Shown here one piece after another: positions 2,750-48,265 of a stretch of 64,000 nucleotides of DNA (its first letter is position 1; every line of letters starts with the position of its first letter). Where the stretch lies: the NCBI GenBank assembly GCA_044356735.1, contig JBIKVR010000001.1, forward strand, positions 145 through 64,144. The letters run 5' to 3'. Source of the stretch: Prochlorococcaceae cyanobacterium. Lineage in GTDB: Bacteria; Cyanobacteriota; Cyanobacteriia; PCC-6307; Cyanobiaceae. The notes under the pieces were generated by a model. The model saw only the letters and a list, made by a program, of their open reading frames with translations. It ran no database searches and was not told where the DNA came from. Both the position numbers and the translations under genes were made by a program.

Positions 2750-5209
2750 TCAGGCGGCCTCCCCGTAGAGGGCGGTCTGCAGGTCGTGCACCGCCCGCTC
2801 GAAACCAGCCTTCGAGCCGAAGGGACGCAGCAGCTCCAGTTGGGTGCCCATGGCACTGAACGGTGGAATCCGCAGGATTTTCACGTCGGCCAGCTCGTCC
2901 ACCACGCCGCCATCCTGGTACTTGGCCAGCAGGGCCTCCAGCACTGCCCGGGCCTGGGGGCCATAGCGGCTGTACACCCCTTGCTTTTGCACCCGTGCGG
3001 CGCGCTCGCGGCGGGATAGGGGCGGCTGGTCGTAGGCGATGTGGCAGATCAAATCAAAAGGATCGAGCTCCAGGCCCAGCTCCTCCTGCAGCGGCTCCAG
3101 CAGCAGCCCCTCCTCCGCCAGCTCCTGGATGATCGTGGCCTTGCGCTGCTCCCCCCGCCAGCGACGCAGGAAGACATCGAGGCTGGCGTACTGCTCGCGC
3201 ACCGTCTTGCGGCTGTAATCGCGTAGAGATTCCGTCACCAGCTTGCCGTTTTCATCCAGGTATTCGATCCGCTCGGTGAGCACGCGCACCGGCTTGCCCT
3301 TGATGTAGTACTTCTGACGTGGCTCGCCGGGAGGCTGAGGGTCTGGGGGATTGGGATTCACCAGAATGGACTCTTCCCCGTTGTCGCCGCAGTCCTCTTC
3401 GTCCGGATCCTCATTCAGCGGATCCGTCTCGCCGGTGGATTGCTCCGGCGGCAGCGGTGGATCATCTTCGCCTGGCTCGTAGATCTGTACCGGCTCGCCA
3501 TCAAACCCCGGATCCGCAAAATGCTTGCTGGCTTTGCGGAAATCCACCAGGGTGAAGTAAAACTTCTGGCTGTCGGCATGCACCCGCGTGCCGCGTCCCA
3601 CGATCTGCTTGAACTCGGTCATCGAGCCCACCTCCCGATCGAGCACGATCAGCCGGCAGGTCTGGGCGTCCACGCCCGTGGAGAGCAAGCGCGAGGTGGT
3701 GACAAGCACCGGCCAAGGATTCATCGGATCGATGAAGTCATCGAGGGCCTTCATGCCCTCCTCATCGTTGCCAGTGATGCGCATCACATAGCGGCCGTTG
3801 GCCTGCACCAGATCCTGGTTTTCATTGATCAGCGCCTGGCGCATCATCAGGGCGTGCTCGGTGTCCACACAGAACACGATCGTTTTCTGCATCCGATCGC
3901 CGCTGGCCTTGAGGTAATCGCTGATCCACTTCGCCACCCGGAGGGTGCGTGCATCGATCACCAGCAAGCGATCAAAATCCTTCTGGTTGTAGAGGCGATC
4001 CTCGATCTCCATACCGCGATCATCCACCTCTCCAGGCTTCGGGCGATAGCCCTCCACATCAATATCGAGATGCACGCGGATCACCTTGTAGGGCGCCAGG
4101 AAGCCATCGCGTATGCCCTGCTTTAGCGAATAGGTGTAGAGCGGTTCGCCAAAATAATCGATATTCGACACATACTTGGTTTCCTTCGGCGTTGCGGTAA
4201 GGCCGATCTGGGTGGCGGCGCTGAAATACTCCAGGATCTCGCGCCAGGCCGAATCCTCCGCCGCGCTGCCGCGGTGGCATTCATCCACCACGATCAGATC
4301 GAAGAAGCCCGGTGAGAATTCTTTGTAGAGCTTCTGGCGCTCCTCCGGCCCGGTGAGCGCCTGGTAGAGACCCAGATAGACCTCATAGGAGGTGTCGATG
4401 CGGCGCTGCTTATTCAACGCCAGCGCGATCGTTTCCAGGCTGCCATCAGTCCGCTCAATGGTTTTTGAGGCCGTGCTCAACTTGGCCATCGCCGGCCCAA
4501 ATGGCCGGAAGTCGTTGACCATCGTCTGGTTCACCAGCACGTTGCGATCTGCCAGAAACAGGATTCGCTTCTTTTGCCCCGCCTTCCAAAGCCGCCAGAT
4601 GATCTGAAAGGCGGTGAATGTTTTGCCCGTTCCGGTGGCCATCACCAGCAGAATGCGCTGCTGGCCTTTGGTGATCGCCTCCACCGTGGCCTGGATGGCA
4701 TTTATCTGGTAATAGCGCGGGTCTTTCCTTTTGCCACCGACGTAATAGGGATGCAGCACCACCTTCTCCTGTTGGGGCGTGAAGCCCTTCCAGCGGCTAT
4801 AGCGGCGCCAGAGATCCTCGGGGCTGGGGAAGGCCTTAAGGGCCAGGGTGGTTTCGCGTTCTTCGCTCTGGCCGGTGCGGTCGTGGAAAACGAAGCCATC
4901 GCCGTTGGAGGCAAACACAAACGGCGTGTTCAAGGCCTTGGCATAGGCCAGGGCCTGCTGCAGGCCGTCGCCGATGGCGTGGCTGTTGTCCTTGGCCTCG
5001 ATCACCGCCAGGGGCACACCCTCGTACACCAGCAGGTAGTCGGCCCGCTTGCACCGGCCCCGGCTCACCAGCCGCCCGCGCACGATGATGCGGCCATCGG
5101 TGAACGAATACTCGCGCCGCATTCGCTCCAACAGCCAGCCGGCCTGCTGCAGCGCCGGTGTGATGAAGCGATCGCAGATCTCGGTTTCGCTGAGGGCGCG
5201 CTTGGTCAT
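2750..5209 (-). CDS. hsdR: Type I restriction endonuclease subunit HsdR
   Basis: 819 aa. N-terminal nuclease region (ADYLLVYEG...IEAKD), helicase motifs LLVMATGTGKT and VVDECHRGSA, and the typical HsdR C-terminal domain. Confidence 0.95.
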   Translation of the reverse strand: MTKRALSETEICDRFITPALQQAGWLLERMRREYSFTDGRIIVRGRLVSRGRCKRADYLLVYEGVPLAVIEAKDNSHAIGDGLQQALAYAKALNTPFVFASNGDGFVFHDRTGQSEERETTLALKAFPSPEDLWRRYSRWKGFTPQQEKVVLHPYYVGGKRKDPRYYQINAIQATVEAITKGQQRILLVMATGTGKTFTAFQIIWRLWKAGQKKRILFLADRNVLVNQTMVNDFRPFGPAMAKLSTASKTIERTDGSLETIALALNKQRRIDTSYEVYLGLYQALTGPEERQKLYKEFSPGFFDLIVVDECHRGSAAEDSAWREILEYFSAATQIGLTATPKETKYVSNIDYFGEPLYTYSLKQGIRDGFLAPYKVIRVHLDIDVEGYRPKPGEVDDRGMEIEDRLYNQKDFDRLLVIDARTLRVAKWISDYLKASGDRMQKTIVFCVDTEHALMMRQALINENQDLVQANGRYVMRITGNDEEGMKALDDFIDPMNPWPVLVTTSRLLSTGVDAQTCRLIVLDREVGSMTEFKQIVGRGTRVHADSQKFYFTLVDFRKASKHFADPGFDGEPVQIYEPGEDDPPLPPEQSTGETDPLNEDPDEEDCGDNGEESILVNPNPPDPQPPGEPRQKYYIKGKPVRVLTERIEYLDENGKLVTESLRDYSRKTVREQYASLDVFLRRWRGEQRKATIIQELAEEGLLLEPLQEELGLELDPFDLICHIAYDQPPLSRRERAARVQKQGVYSRYGPQARAVLEALLAKYQDGGVVDELADVKILRIPPFSAMGTQLELLRPFGSKAGFERAVHDLQTALYGEAA

Positions 5210-43717: not shown

Positions 43718-44025
43718 CAGCTGCAATCAGCAGACAGGCCAGGGGCCGCCAGCGGCCGTAATTATTAGCGGCTGGCACCGGGAGTGGTTGCTGGCACTTG
43801 ACTGGCAGCAGGCGAATGCTCTTCCGGGCAGGGAATGCCCGGAAACCAGTAGAGCTCTTGCCTAGCAGCGCTGCTCGCCGCTGCCAGGCGAACCACTGAA
43901 TGACGAACTGCTGCCTGGCGAGTTTTTGAAGGGCGAATTTTCGGTGGGCGGCCCTGGGATTGGCGAACTGTTGACTGGTGAGCCTCAGACTGGGTCTCAG
44001 TGATTACCGCCCCTGGCCGGAACCG

Positions 44026-46116
44026 ATGGACCCTCGCTTCCGGGTTGACCTGATCGCCGCCACCCCCCACCCCCAACAGTGCGTCTACGCGGCGATGCAC
44101 CAGGACTACAGCGAGGGCTACGTGGTGGACGATCGCGCCAACTGGCCCGAGGAAAGCCGTGCCGGCGAGATCTGCGTCAAGCGGCTTTTGGCGGGGGAGC
44201 GGGGCCATTACGGCCCCCTGGAACACGGCCAGATCGTGCTCAATGTGGGCTGGTTTCCCCATTCCGTTATGCAGCAGGCCCGCACCCATCGGGTGGGAGT
44301 TAGTTTTGATGTGCAATGTCTAGCTGGAAATACTGAAATCACCTTCCTTAATGCCGGAGGGGGCTTAAAGAAAATCAGGATCGATGCACTGCACGACCTC
44401 TGGACCCACGGAGAGCGGGCGACCCGGCAACGGCAGATCCGAGGCCGCCATGGCGAAGCGCCGGGCACCTACCGGCGCGATTGTCGCCAGCGGCTGCAAA
44501 AGATGAAGCTACGGGTACTAAATGAGACCACGAAAGTCTTCGAGACGAGCCAGCTCACTGATGTGATCTGCAGCGGGCTGCAACCTGTCTATCGGCTCAC
44601 CATGGAGGATGGCCGCAGCCTGGACTGCACCGCCAACCATCGCCTGTTCACGCCCCAGGGTTGGCAGACCATGGCGGAGGCGCTCTCCCTCCGGGTGGGG
44701 CGAGATGGTGGTGTGCAGAGCTTCCGCCGCACCGCCCAGGTGCTGGCGAACGGCAACGTGGCTGTGGGTAGCGGAGCCTACCGGGATTCGGGCTGGCTGC
44801 GGCAACAGGTGGAAGCCGGGGCTACCCCGGGGGAGATGGCAGACCGAGCGGGCTGCTCGATCACCACAATCCGGGACTGGGCCCGTCGCCATCAGATCCA
44901 ACTGAAGGAAAACAGCAGATGCTTTCAACCTGGAGACAAGCCTTGGAACCACAACCCATCAGCGCTGTATCGGCAGCAGGAATGGCTCCGGCAAAGGCTG
45001 GAGGAGGGACTGCATGTCAACGAAATGGCTGAACTCGCAGGCTGCTCAGGGGAAGCAATCAAGAAGTGGGTCTATCACTACGGCCTGACCCTGAATCGTC
45101 GTCCAACCGGTTTCCAGAAGGGCACACAACCCTGGAACAAAGCGCGCGGTGGTTACAGCCTGCAGCTGTCGGAGTCGTCGCGAGAAGCGCGGTGTGCCCA
45201 CGGTAAACGAATCACCCGACGGGGCTCCGAGTCAAACTTTTGGAAAGGCGGTGTTTCTTCTGAACGCGAGTTAATTGGTGCCTGGACGCGGCAGATTGCG
45301 CCCCAGGTTCATAGACGCTTCGATTACACCTGCCAACGCTGTGGCCTGCGAGGTAGCGACCAGCAACTGCATGCCCACCACCTGGTGCCGGTTTATGCGG
45401 ATCCAAGCCTGGGCTGCGAGATGGACAATCTCGTAACCCTTTGCCAACCATGTCACGCTTTTATTCATAAGCACCAGCAGGAGGCCGACTTTGCCGCAAC
45501 GTTCAGCCCGAGGAAACCGGTCACAGATTGGCCTGAAAAGCATCACCCTCAAGGCCGGAGATTGATGGCCCATCCACTCACCGTGGTGAACGTGGAGTTC
45601 CTGGGAACTCAGATGACCTACGACCTGGAGGTGCAGGGGCCGTGGCACAACTTCGTGGCCAATGGGCTGGTGGTGCACAACTCGATGCGCTATACGGGCG
45701 AACGCATAGTTCGCGCCGCCAACGGACATACAGATCTAGAGGAAGTGTTCTACCTGCGACCGGTGGGTAACTACAGCGATCGGCAGGGCAAAAAGTATTT
45801 TTACTCGCCAGAAGAAAGGGCAAAAGATCTGGAACTTTGTCTTGCCGCCGCTAAACGCTACTCCGACATGATGGATGCGGGCTTTGCGGAAGAACATGCC
45901 CGCGGCATTCTGCCCTTTGACTACCGCCAGCATTTTGTGGTGAGCTTCAGCCTGCGGGCCTTCCTGCACTTTCTAGACCTGCGGGCCAAGCTCGATGCCC
46001 AGGACGAAATTCGCCATCTCTGCGATTTGATGTGGCCCCACCTGCAGAACTGGGCCCCTGAAATCGCCGCCTGGTATGAAAAGAGCCGCCTGCATAAAGC
46101 CCGCCTAGCCCCCTAA
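44026..46116 (+). CDS. thyX: FAD-dependent thymidylate synthase ThyX, interrupted by an intein
   Basis: Exteins: MDPRFRVDLIAATPHPQQCVYAAMHQDYSE...HGPLEHGQIVLNVGWFPHSVMQQARTHRVGVSFDVQ | SMRYTGERIV...FSLRAFLHFLDLRAKLDAQDEIR. The ORF is open from a GTG at 43978. The spliced length is about 241-257 aa. Confidence 0.9.
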   Translation: MDPRFRVDLIAATPHPQQCVYAAMHQDYSEGYVVDDRANWPEESRAGEICVKRLLAGERGHYGPLEHGQIVLNVGWFPHSVMQQARTHRVGVSFDVQCLAGNTEITFLNAGGGLKKIRIDALHDLWTHGERATRQRQIRGRHGEAPGTYRRDCRQRLQKMKLRVLNETTKVFETSQLTDVICSGLQPVYRLTMEDGRSLDCTANHRLFTPQGWQTMAEALSLRVGRDGGVQSFRRTAQVLANGNVAVGSGAYRDSGWLRQQVEAGATPGEMADRAGCSITTIRDWARRHQIQLKENSRCFQPGDKPWNHNPSALYRQQEWLRQRLEEGLHVNEMAELAGCSGEAIKKWVYHYGLTLNRRPTGFQKGTQPWNKARGGYSLQLSESSREARCAHGKRITRRGSESNFWKGGVSSERELIGAWTRQIAPQVHRRFDYTCQRCGLRGSDQQLHAHHLVPVYADPSLGCEMDNLVTLCQPCHAFIHKHQQEADFAATFSPRKPVTDWPEKHHPQGRRLMAHPLTVVNVEFLGTQMTYDLEVQGPWHNFVANGLVVHNSMRYTGERIVRAANGHTDLEEVFYLRPVGNYSDRQGKKYFYSPEERAKDLELCLAAAKRYSDMMDAGFAEEHARGILPFDYRQHFVVSFSLRAFLHFLDLRAKLDAQDEIRHLCDLMWPHLQNWAPEIAAWYEKSRLHKARLAP
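44317..45681 (+). mobile_element. Intein (455 aa) with HNH homing-endonuclease domain, inserted in the ThyX RHR...S motif
   Basis: Starts with CLAGNTEITF (block A Cys1). Block B is DCTANHRLFTPQGW. The C-terminal blocks are MTYDLEVQGPWHNFVANGLVVHN followed by the +1 Ser (SMRY). Internally there are YTCQRCG...HAHHLVPVYADPSLGCEMDNLVTLCQPCHAFIH (HNH with CxxC pairs) and two HTH-like repeats (GEMADRAGCSITTIRDWARRH / NEMAELAGCSGEAIKKWVYHY). Confidence 0.85.
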
Positions 46117-46312: not shown

Positions 46313-47725
<1,413 letters not shown>

Positions 47726-47789
47726 CTATGGCGAAGGGGGTGCCGTGACGGCAACAGTGCCGACGCGGTGGAGGGGCGCAGCTGGAGTT

Positions 47790-47880
47790 CCTTCTCACTT
47801 CCCTGCGCCGGCATGACCCGGATCAGGTTCGGAGGGTGTGATCTCAGCCCTAGGCCCTGGCGGGCCGGGCACCCCTAGTG
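47790..47880 (-). promoter_or_regulatory. TPP (THI-box) riboswitch in the thiC leader
   Basis: The rc reads CTAGGGGTGCCCGGCCCGCCAGGGCCTAGGGCTGAGATCACACCCTCCGAACCTGATCCGGGTCATGCCGGCGCAGGGAAGTGAG. The conserved elements GGGGTGC, CTGAGA, ACCC, GAACCTGATCCGG.T.ATGCCGGCG.AGGGA are all present, about 70 nt upstream of the thiC ATG. Confidence 0.9.
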
Positions 47881-48265
47881 ACCATGGCAACCTAGCAACA
47901 GCCAACCAAGCTGCGGCAAGCTGATCTGGAGGCCCATTGAATCGCCTGGTCGTCTGGGGCGCCAAAGACACCAAGCTGCCACGGCGAAGTTCCCCCGGGC
48001 AGCGGCGGAGCAACCCCCCAGCCAGAGGCTCCTAGATACGCCCAAGGCCCCATGCCAGCAGCGCGCCCCTAGCCCCCAAGAGGCCCAGAGCAACCAAGGG
48101 GCCGTTGGGGTTGTCATGCCCCTGACCTTTAGGACTGGAAATTCCAGCCAGGCCAAAGCAACCTGAACGGAGCTTTCTTGCGATTATCCAGGCATCGCCG
48201 CCGCTGGTGGTTGGCCGGGGCAGTTCGCCCATAGGCTGGGTGGATGTGATGAGGCAGGGTTTTTG

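What the first reader, a model, noticed from the sequence alone, without database searches (positions are those of the whole stretch)
44317..45681. HNH-type intein splitting the ThyX active-site motif
- The thyX ORF is about 455 aa too long.
- The insert begins with Cys (CLAGNTEI) immediately after ...RTHRVGVSFDVQ. It ends ...NFVANGLVVHN immediately before SMRY. Removing it restores the contiguous ThyX signature RTHRVGVSFDVQ-SMRY, with the +1 Ser being the conserved motif serine.
- Splicing blocks A, B (TANH) and F/G are recognisable.
- The homing endonuclease is HNH with Zn-finger CxxC pairs rather than LAGLIDADG. It is preceded by a duplicated module: an HTH-like segment plus a (F)Q(P/K)G..PWN(H/K) motif.
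- The insert DNA looks lower in GC than the exteins.
- thyX is the only thymidylate synthase gene visible in this window. Whether a thyA gene exists elsewhere in the genome cannot be judged from here. If there is none, splicing would have to be efficient.
- HNH inteins in thyX are uncommon to my knowledge.
Basis: partly seen in the sequence, partly recalled or inferred. Interest (0 to 1): 0.6.

Follow-up and report, generated by a model that had tools for sequence, protein, structure and literature searches.

The report
HNH homing intein inside cyanobacterial thyX
The only thymidylate synthase gene (thyX) of this Cyanobium-like picocyanobacterium is interrupted at its active-site serine by an intact 455-residue self-splicing intein carrying an HNH nuclease, a real element that belongs to a family already common in cyanobacteria.

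Summary
thyX (ATG 44026 to stop 46116, + strand) carries a 455-codon in-frame insert at 44317-45681. It begins with Cys, has a TANH block B, ends in His-Asn and is followed by Ser.

Twelve relatives have the uninterrupted site RTHRVGVSFDVQ|SMRYTG. The +1 Ser aligns with the serine of the ThyX RHR-x7-S motif. Models and a predicted fold identify a HINT splicing domain, two tandem HTH modules and a CxxC/H-N-H/CxxCH HNH nuclease.

The genome, and all 10 genomes of its genus, lack thyA; this genome also lacks thymidine kinase, so splicing must work.

The element is not rare. The family occurs in 58 of 401 sampled genomes of the window's class, taken to be cyanobacteria (40 of 170 genera), and in 250 species representatives. 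A ThyX intein of Trichodesmium was published in 2004 and splices in E. coli. Within the genus there are full-length, endonuclease-deleted and empty alleles. The nuclease is under purifying selection (dN/dS about 0.11). Some family pairs share near-identical inteins between diverged exteins, the mark of homing.

Two side claims fail: the intein is not lower in GC than both exteins, and HNH inteins in thyX are common.

Verdict: a real, ordinary new member of a known kind.

The parts
44026..46116 (+). thyX precursor gene. It encodes 696 aa (79.6 kDa) from the likely ATG start. The open frame extends upstream to GTG 43978.
   Evidence: The ORF is listed. Thy1/TIGR02170 match in two pieces. Homologues of 693-696 aa start at MD(P)RF.
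44026..44316 (+). N-extein, 97 aa, ending ...RTHRVGVSFDVQ.
   Evidence: Thy1 profile positions 2-85 match here. This part is contiguous with the C-extein in intein-less relatives.
44317..45681 (+). Intein: 455 aa, 51.6 kDa, pI 9.5.
   Evidence: Boundaries were computed. The empty site lies exactly at 44316|45682 in 12 relatives. The fold is HINT.
44317..44355 (+). Splicing block A (CLAGNTEITFLNA), with the Cys1 nucleophile.
   Evidence: C1 and L2 are invariant in 121/121 sequences. TIGR01445 aligns from residue 1.
44392..44526 (+). A 45-residue Arg/Lys-rich insertion in the N-terminal splicing domain (HDLW...YRRDC...MKLRVLNE). It may be an extra DNA-contact region; this is inferred.
   Evidence: TIGR01445 (83 positions) is stretched over residues 1-112. 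The segment is strongly conserved in the family. It has 12 R+K in 45 residues. It also aligns with the phage Gizmo ThyX intein.
44611..44652 (+). Splicing block B (GRSLDCTANHRLFT), with T105 and H108.
   Evidence: T105, N107 and H108 are invariant. Pfam Intein_splicing and DnaB-intein matches cover this stretch.
44779..44949 (+). HTH module 1 with a C-terminal FQPGDKPWN motif.
   Evidence: The internal duplication scores z = 24. There are weak MerR/HTH_17/HTH_31 matches. phrog_8446, a phage family annotated HNH endonuclease, covers intein aa 153-381. The model shows three helices.
44968..45138 (+). HTH module 2 with a C-terminal FQKGTQPWN motif.
   Evidence: Some homologues lack exactly one module, a gap of 62-63 aa.
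45331..45468 (+). HNH nuclease core: CQRC ... HAHH ... N ... CQPCH...H.
   Evidence: Pfam HNH scores 29.8 bits against a 21.4 cut-off. PHROG HNH families match. C339, C342, H355, N371, C376, H380 and H384 are invariant in the family. dN/dS is 0.11.
45604..45681 (+). Splicing blocks F and G (TYDLEV..WHNFVANGLVVHN), with the terminal His-Asn.
   Evidence: TIGR01443 scores 23.5 bits against a 15.6 cut-off. H454 and N455 are invariant.
45682..46116 (+). C-extein, 144 aa plus the stop codon. It starts SMRY; Ser+1 is the ThyX motif serine.
   Evidence: Thy1 profile positions 86-191 match here. The alignment to M. tuberculosis ThyX (3gwc) places the Ser at the motif serine.

Best explanation
**What it is**
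- A class-1, bifunctional intein sits in the dUMP-binding ThyX motif of the cell's only thymidylate synthase.

**Splicing (inferred from the conserved residues)**
- The 79.6-kDa precursor is translated whole.
- Cys1 makes a thioester. Ser+1 attacks it. Asn455 cyclises to release the 51.6-kDa intein. An O-to-N shift then leaves a 28-kDa ThyX with the motif RTHRVGVSFDVQ-SMRY restored.

**Homing (inferred)**
- The intein's middle part is a homing endonuclease: two tandem HTH modules and a zinc-ribbon HNH nuclease, probably helped by a basic insertion in the splicing domain.
- It is expected to cut or nick intein-less thyX alleles at or near the Q|S codon junction. Repair from the intein-bearing copy then spreads the element.

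**Placement**
- This copy is an intact member of a large cyanobacterial ThyX-intein family, the kind first described in Trichodesmium.
- In this genus the family shows every stage of the homing cycle: empty, full and nuclease-deleted alleles.

**Shown versus inferred**
- Shown here: the anatomy, the boundaries, the empty sites, the fold, the conservation, the selection, and the family-level transfer signatures.
- Inferred: actual splicing and DNA cleavage by this copy.
For: **Boundaries and empty sites**
- Boundaries are exact, and 12 relatives have empty sites.

**Conservation and models**
- Catalytic residues are invariant in 121 homologues.
- This copy departs at only 2 of 179 strongly conserved columns, against a family median of 5.
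- Pfam and NCBIfam intein and HNH models match.
- The AlphaFold model (pLDDT 75.9) matches the Ssp DnaB mini-intein (TM 0.79 on the target) and the NpuDnaB and RecA inteins, then T. maritima ThyX.
- DnaB inteins are the best PDB sequence hits.
- phrog_8446, a phage family annotated HNH endonuclease, matches the HTH plus HNH part at E = 1.6e-26.

**Dependence on splicing**
- There is no thyA, no thymidine kinase and only one thyX. No thyA is found in the genus.

**Selection**
- dN/dS in the Cyanobium clade is 0.13 for the N-splice region, 0.22 for the HTH modules, 0.11 for HNH and 0.12 for the C-splice region. The exteins give 0.07-0.11.

**Mobility in the family**
- L058 against L059: the intein is 99.9% identical at nucleotide level and the exteins 84-88%, with the switch at the intein borders.
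- L087 against L102: 92% against 76%.
- L044 against L045: 93% against 82-84%.

**Homing-cycle stages in the genus**
- G009 has the full intein. G002 lacks precursor residues 309-507. G004 and G006 lack about 280-459. G001, G003, G007 and G008 are empty.

**Literature**
- The Ter ThyX mini-intein splices at about 100% in E. coli (PMC3620165).
Against: - No experiment on this copy shows splicing or cleavage.
- TIGR01445 (intein N-terminus) is below its cut-off, 20.5 against 24.5 bits. The cause is probably the 45-residue insertion.
- The structure model is only moderately confident in the HNH and linker region, with pLDDT 40-70.
- Across the family, intein identity broadly tracks extein identity (r = 0.78), so much of the distribution could be vertical.
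- Intein-bearing genomes of the genus are simply the closest relatives: flank identity is 90-96%, against 70-76% for the empty ones. There is therefore no direct sign that this particular copy moved recently.
- Two independent nuclease deletions in close relatives show that the nuclease is dispensable once the element is fixed.
Confidence: 0.82

Rival explanations
1. The intein splices, but its nuclease no longer homes. It would be a vertically inherited passenger kept only because precise splicing is needed for ThyX.
For: - Intein and extein identities correlate (r = 0.78).
- In the genus the intein is confined to one close subclade.
- Close relatives have lost the nuclease by in-frame deletions without losing thyX.
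- Window-versus-G009 divergence in the intein is about that of the flanking genes.
Against: - The HNH and HTH parts are under purifying selection as strong as the C-extein (dN/dS 0.11-0.22).
- All invariant HNH residues are present.
- Clear intein-only near-identity between diverged exteins exists in the family, including in the Cyanobium clade.
Confidence: 0.13
2. The intein acts as a conditional switch, sensitive to redox state or metal, on dTMP supply. ThyX is inactive until splicing. Conserved cysteines, Cys1 with Cys104 next to block B or Cys56, could trap the precursor.
For: - The insertion lies in the substrate-binding motif, so the precursor cannot be active.
- C56 and C104 are nearly invariant.
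- The whole element is under purifying selection.
Against: - Many close relatives do well with no intein at all.
- Nothing was done here to test cysteine geometry or conditional splicing.
- Conservation of the nuclease is explained more simply by homing.
Confidence: 0.04
3. The insert is a non-splicing insertion and thyX is a pseudogene or assembly chimera.
For: The genome is a fragmented assembly of 194 contigs at 92% completeness.
Against: - The frame is open over 712 codons.
- The same arrangement is found in an independent assembly at 97% identity (G009) and in hundreds of other assemblies.
- thyX is the only route to dTMP found in this genome.
- The exteins are under strong purifying selection.
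Confidence: 0.01

Closest known systems
Ter ThyX intein of Trichodesmium erythraeum IMS101. Source: Liu & Yang 2004, J Bacteriol 186:6316, cited in PMC4143802 and PMC4649490. The mini-intein splices at about 100% in E. coli (PMC3620165).
   Same: It is an intein in the ThyX of a cyanobacterium. It has a putative endonuclease domain that can be deleted without loss of splicing. The natural deletions in G002, G004 and G006 mirror this.
   Different: I could not obtain the Ter ThyX sequence, so the same insertion point and sequence homology are not tested here. The Trichodesmium gene also carries a group II intron, according to the paper's title. The window's gene shows no such interruption, since its frame is continuous.
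Unnamed cyanobacterial ThyX + HTH + HNH intein family, annotated in databases only as 'FAD-dependent thymidylate synthase'. Examples: Cyanobium gracile UHCC 0281, Synechococcus sp. RedBA-s, Halomicronema hongdechloris, Nostoc linckia NIES-25, Microcoleus, Leptolyngbya.
   Same: The insertion point (Q|S) is the same, C1, HN and S+1 are invariant, and the domain order is the same. Intein identity is 53-97%.
   Different: Nothing essential differs. The window's copy has two HTH modules, like most members. Some members have one module or have lost the nuclease.
ThyX ('TdS') inteins of cluster C1 mycobacteriophages (Gizmo gp97, ZygoTaiga, Cane17) and of Streptomyces. Sources: Kelley et al. 2016, PMC5050341; the in-frame HNH type is also noted in bioRxiv 10.1101/2025.01.02.630785.
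   Same: The host protein and motif are the same, and these are also in-frame HNH inteins. Identity is 36-38% over the HNH plus C-terminal splicing region (E about 4e-15). The N-terminal splicing domain, including the basic insertion, also aligns.
   Different: The insertion point differs. The phage has RHRSGF|SYNEESGRY, five codons upstream of the cyanobacterial ...SFDVQ|SMRY site. The phage intein lacks the HTH modules: Gizmo gp97 is 492 aa in all.
DnaB mini-inteins (Ssp DnaB 1mi8/6frg, Npu DnaB 4o1r).
   Same: They are the closest solved splicing domains by sequence (E about 8e-10) and by fold.
   Different: The host protein is different. The crystallised forms are engineered or natural mini-inteins without a nuclease.

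Membership tests
Class 1 intein (HINT splicing domain) | Cys/Ser/Thr nucleophile as first residue | tested here: met
   The first residue is Cys at nt 44317-44319. It is invariant in 121/121 homologues.
Class 1 intein (HINT splicing domain) | Block B Thr-x-x-His | tested here: met
   The motif is T105-A-N-H108. T105, N107 and H108 are invariant.
Class 1 intein (HINT splicing domain) | C-terminal His-Asn followed by a Cys/Ser/Thr +1 residue | tested here: met
   The sequence is ...VVHN|S. H, N and S are invariant in 121/121.
Class 1 intein (HINT splicing domain) | Curated sequence models above threshold | tested here: inconclusive
   PF14890 scores 36.9 against 35.8 and TIGR01443 scores 23.5 against 15.6, so both are met. 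TIGR01445 scores 20.5 against 24.5 and is not met, because it is stretched by a 45-aa insertion.
Class 1 intein (HINT splicing domain) | HINT fold formed by the N- and C-terminal parts around the inserted domain | tested here: met
   Foldseek gives the Ssp DnaB mini-intein 6frg at E = 2e-7 and target TM 0.79, with the alignment spanning 458 columns. NpuDnaB and Mtu RecA inteins also match. The model's mean pLDDT is 75.9.
Class 1 intein (HINT splicing domain) | Precise absence from orthologues (empty site in a conserved host motif) | tested here: met
   Twelve intein-less relatives read RTHRVGVSFDVQ|SMRYTG without a gap. DNA breakpoints lie at 44315-44317 and 45682.
Class 1 intein (HINT splicing domain) | Protein splicing demonstrated | not testable with these tools
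   The support is indirect only. thyX is the sole thymidylate synthase gene and there is no tdk. The exteins are under purifying selection.
HNH homing endonuclease | beta-beta-alpha-metal core with His...Asn...His and zinc-binding CxxC pairs | tested here: met
   The sequence is CQRC...HAHH...N...CQPCH...H. Pfam HNH scores 29.8 against 21.4. C339, C342, H355, N371, C376, H380 and H384 are invariant.
HNH homing endonuclease | Site-specific cleavage of the element-free allele | not testable with these tools
   This needs a purified protein and an empty-site substrate.
HNH homing endonuclease | Evidence of element-specific horizontal movement | tested here: met
   This is met at family level only. 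L058/L059 have the intein at 99.9% nt identity against exteins at 84-88%. L087/L102 show 92% against 76%, and L044/L045 93% against 82-84%. It is not shown for the window's own copy.
Ter ThyX intein allele (Trichodesmium) | Same host protein in a cyanobacterium | tested here: met
   The host protein is ThyX (TIGR02170, 165.6 bits). The closest genomes are Cyanobium and related cyanobacteria.
Ter ThyX intein allele (Trichodesmium) | Same insertion point and recognisable sequence homology to Ter ThyX | not tested
   The sequence was not obtainable: PMC515151 is not held and there is no sequence text in PMC3620165 or PMC10127266.
Mycobacteriophage/Streptomyces ThyX inteins represented by Gizmo gp97 | Same insertion point | tested here: not met
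   Gizmo gp97 reads RHRSGF|C...HN|SYNEESGRY, five codons upstream of the window's site.
Mycobacteriophage/Streptomyces ThyX inteins represented by Gizmo gp97 | Sequence homology of the intein | tested here: met
   Identity is 36-38% over intein aa 317-455, at E = 4e-15 in a 2.3-Gb database. The N-terminal splicing part also aligns.

The most novel reading that the evidence does not exclude
One lineage of HNH inteins may be specialised on the ThyX RHR...S motif and may have shifted its insertion point between neighbouring Ser codons. The cyanobacterial family sits at the motif serine (position 0). The homologous mycobacteriophage intein sits five codons upstream.

The cyanobacterial branch has in addition gained, and then duplicated, an HTH DNA-binding module like that of phage proteins annotated as HNH endonucleases. 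It is still moving between cyanobacterial lineages. That would make it a natural series for studying how a homing enzyme retargets within one essential motif.
Probability: 0.4. Interest if true: 0.35.

Novelty: new member of a known kind. Interest (0 to 1): 0.18.

Why it matters
**For annotation**
- The gene should be called thyX with an intein, not a 712-aa 'thymidylate synthase' or an HNH endonuclease.
- The organism's DNA synthesis depends on protein splicing.

**Beyond annotation**
- This copy adds little on its own, because the family is large and a relative has already been used as a splicing tool.
- The modest wider value is the data set around it. One genus shows empty, full and nuclease-deleted alleles. 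Family pairs have 99.9% identical inteins between 84-88% identical exteins. A related phage intein sits five codons away.
- Together these make a convenient natural system for studying the homing cycle and target-site shifts of HNH inteins in an essential gene.

Tried and rejected
**Ter ThyX sequence**
- I tried to obtain it for a direct allele test. PMC515151 is not held. There is no sequence text in PMC3620165 or PMC10127266, or in the latter's supplement.

**Co-conversion in the genus**
- I tested whether intein-bearing genomes of the genus owe their higher extein identity to co-conversion. This is rejected: their flanking genes are equally closer (90-96% against 70-76%).

**Recent transfer of the window's own copy**
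- Against its nearest relative, the window's intein has three times fewer synonymous differences than the exteins (24 in 455 codons against 34 in 241, Fisher p = 1e-4).
- The intein's mismatch density equals that of the flanking genes, so I do not read this as a recent transfer.

**Artefact**
- An apparent 200-nt insertion in the relative's thiC is a masked run of N.

**Models that did not match**
- No NUMOD-type Pfam model matched the HTH/PWN modules at E <= 0.1.

**Other inteins in the genome**
- The PF14890 scan found no other intein. In six-frame mode the thyX intein itself scored only about 20 bits, so this negative is weak.
Full report
**Observation**

The + strand ORF 43978..46116 is 712 codons. 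CLAGNTEI begins at nt 44317 and ...GLVVHN ends at nt 45681.

Pfam Thy1 and NCBIfam TIGR02170 (165.6 bits, cut-off 87.9) match in two pieces that abut at profile position 85/86.

Inside the insert:
- Pfam Intein_splicing scores 36.9 bits (cut-off 35.8).
- Pfam HNH scores 29.8 bits (cut-off 21.4).
- TIGR01443 (intein C-terminus) scores 23.5 bits (cut-off 15.6).
- TIGR01445 (intein N-terminus) aligns from residue 1 to 112 but stays below its cut-off (20.5 against 24.5). It is stretched by a 45-residue basic insertion.

Homologues of 693-696 aa begin at MD(P)RF. The real start is therefore probably ATG 44026, which gives a 696-aa precursor.

**It is an insertion, not a ThyX domain**

In a search of 60 relatives, four genomes of the same genus and many of the family match the N-extein and C-extein back to back. 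At DNA level their alignments break at window positions 44315-44317 and 45682. Twelve of them read RTHRVGVSFDVQ|SMRYTG without a gap.

A phmmer alignment of the joined exteins to M. tuberculosis ThyX (3gwc) pairs thrvgvsfdvqSmry with rhrh-fsysqlSqry. The +1 Ser is therefore the serine of the RHR-x7-S ThyX motif.

**It is an intein**

In 121 aligned family members Cys1, Leu2, the penultimate His, the terminal Asn and Ser+1 are invariant. So are T105, N107 and H108 of block B and the WHNFVANG..VVHN block F/G.

The closest solved sequences are DnaB inteins (1mi8, 4o1r, E about 8e-10).

An AlphaFold model built on a 79-sequence alignment has mean pLDDT 75.9. Its best Foldseek matches are:
- the Ssp DnaB mini-intein (E = 2e-7, target TM 0.79, with the alignment spanning both halves of the intein);
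- the NpuDnaB and Mtu RecA inteins;
- then T. maritima and T. thermophilus ThyX.

The window's copy differs from the family consensus at only 2 of 179 columns that are at least 90% conserved. The family median is 5.

**The middle part**

- Residues 155-211 and 218-274 are a tandem duplication of an HTH module ending in F-Q-x-G-x-x-P-W-N. The alignment score is 128, against 24 +/- 4 for shuffles. Each module is modelled as three helices.
- Some homologues carry only one module.
- The HNH core (339-384) has CQRC, HAHH, N371 and CQPCH..H, all invariant in the family.
- A PHROG family annotated HNH endonuclease (phrog_8446) matches residues 153-381 at E = 1.6e-26. The HTH plus HNH unit therefore looks like a captured phage-type endonuclease.

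**Dependence on splicing**

The 92%-complete genome has no thyA (PF00303), no thymidine kinase (PF00265) and a single thyX. None of the 10 genomes of the genus, four of them 99% complete, nor any sampled genome of the family has thyA. So the absence is real. Active ThyX can arise only by splicing, because the insert lies in the substrate-binding motif.

**Distribution**

The first 120 protein-cluster hits are all ThyX + intein + HNH proteins; every hit that carries an organism name is from a cyanobacterium. Intein identity is 53-93% for the full-coverage hits, with one at 49%.

A scan of species-representative genomes found 250 with a relative. The nearest are 'Cyanobacteria bacterium UBA5018' (97%) and Cyanobium gracile UHCC 0281 (84%).

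In an even sample of 401 genomes of the window's class, taken to be cyanobacteria, 58 genomes (40 of 170 genera) carry the family at E <= 1e-20:
- about 30 are full length;
- the rest have one HTH module or a truncated nuclease.

The literature already holds the following:
- the Trichodesmium ThyX intein (Liu & Yang 2004, cited);
- its mini-intein, which splices at about 100% in E. coli (PMC3620165);
- ThyX inteins in mycobacteriophages and Streptomyces (PMC5050341);
- in-frame HNH inteins in actinophage thymidylate synthases (bioRxiv 10.1101/2025.01.02.630785).

**Homing cycle and mobility**

In the genus:
- G009 has the full intein (97% identical).
- G002 has an in-frame deletion of precursor residues 309-507.
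- G004 and G006 have a different in-frame deletion, of about 280-459.
- Four more distant genomes are empty.

The intein-bearing genomes are simply the nearest relatives. Their flanks are 90-96% identical, against 70-76% for the empty ones. The window's copy therefore shows no sign of recent arrival.

Pairwise Nei-Gojobori estimates among 21 Cyanobium-clade sequences give these median dN/dS values:
- N-splice domain 0.13
- HTH modules 0.22
- HNH 0.11
- C-splice domain 0.12
- N-extein 0.07
- C-extein 0.11

The nuclease is therefore maintained by selection.

Across 76 sequences, intein identity tracks extein identity (r = 0.78). Some pairs break the rule sharply:
- L058 and L059, from separate assemblies, have inteins 99.9% identical over 1359 nt but exteins only 84-88% identical. 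The change falls at the intein borders.
- L087/L102 show 92% against 76%.
- L044/L045, in the Cyanobium clade, show 93% against 82-84%.

This is the expected trace of homing.

**Relation to the phage inteins**

The best phage matches to the intein are ThyX genes of cluster C1 mycobacteriophages, at 36-38% identity over residues 317-455 and E about 4e-15. In Gizmo gp97 the intein lies at RHRSGF|SYNEESGRY, five codons upstream of the cyanobacterial site, and it lacks the HTH modules. The two are related inteins at different points of one motif.

**Side claims**

GC is 60.1% in the intein, 64.3% in the N-extein and 56.1% in the C-extein. There is thus no compositional signal.

**Verdict**

This is a real, intact bifunctional intein and an ordinary new member of a known, widespread family. 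Splicing and cleavage by this copy are inferred, not shown.

Noticed in passing
window 47783-47886 (-): A TPP riboswitch (RF00059, 74 bits against a gathering score of 54.3) lies upstream of thiC (46313-47719, minus strand), the gene next to thyX. This is ordinary.
   Followed up: yes
window 43978-44026: The longest ORF starts at GTG 43978. The 693-696-aa homologues begin at MD(P)RFRV, which corresponds to ATG 44026, so the upstream 16 codons are probably not translated.
   Followed up: partly
window 44392-44526 (intein aa 26-70): A conserved 45-residue Arg/Lys-rich insertion (YRRDC, MxLRVLNE) sits between splicing blocks A and B. It also aligns with the mycobacteriophage Gizmo ThyX intein. 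It could be an extra DNA-contact region of the splicing domain.
   Followed up: partly
window 44482-44484 and 44626-44628 (intein C56, C104): Two nearly invariant cysteines were noted, one directly before the block B threonine (DCTxNH). A disulfide with Cys1 (redox control of splicing) is conceivable but was not examined.
   Followed up: no
L058 vs L059; L087 vs L102; L044 vs L045 (thyX loci of other cyanobacteria): The inteins are 92-99.9% identical at nucleotide level between exteins only 76-88% identical, with the switch at the intein borders. This signals recent intein-specific transfer within the family.
   Followed up: partly
window 44026-46113 vs L033/L004 (nearest relative): Synonymous differences are three times denser in the exteins (34 in 241 codons) than in the intein (24 in 455 codons), p = 1e-4. 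The intein's density equals that of the neighbouring genes, so the exteins rather than the intein are the odd part. This is unexplained.
   Followed up: partly
genomes G010, G015, G020-G030, G036 (small genomes of the same family): These 1.3-1.8-Mb relatives give only weak matches (E about 1e-4, 30-37% identity) to the C-extein of this ThyX. Their thyX, if present, is very divergent from that of the Cyanobium-like genera.
   Followed up: no
L004 positions about 4218-4403 (thiC of G009): An apparent 185-200-nt insertion relative to the window is a run of 184 masked N, not a real insert.
   Followed up: yes
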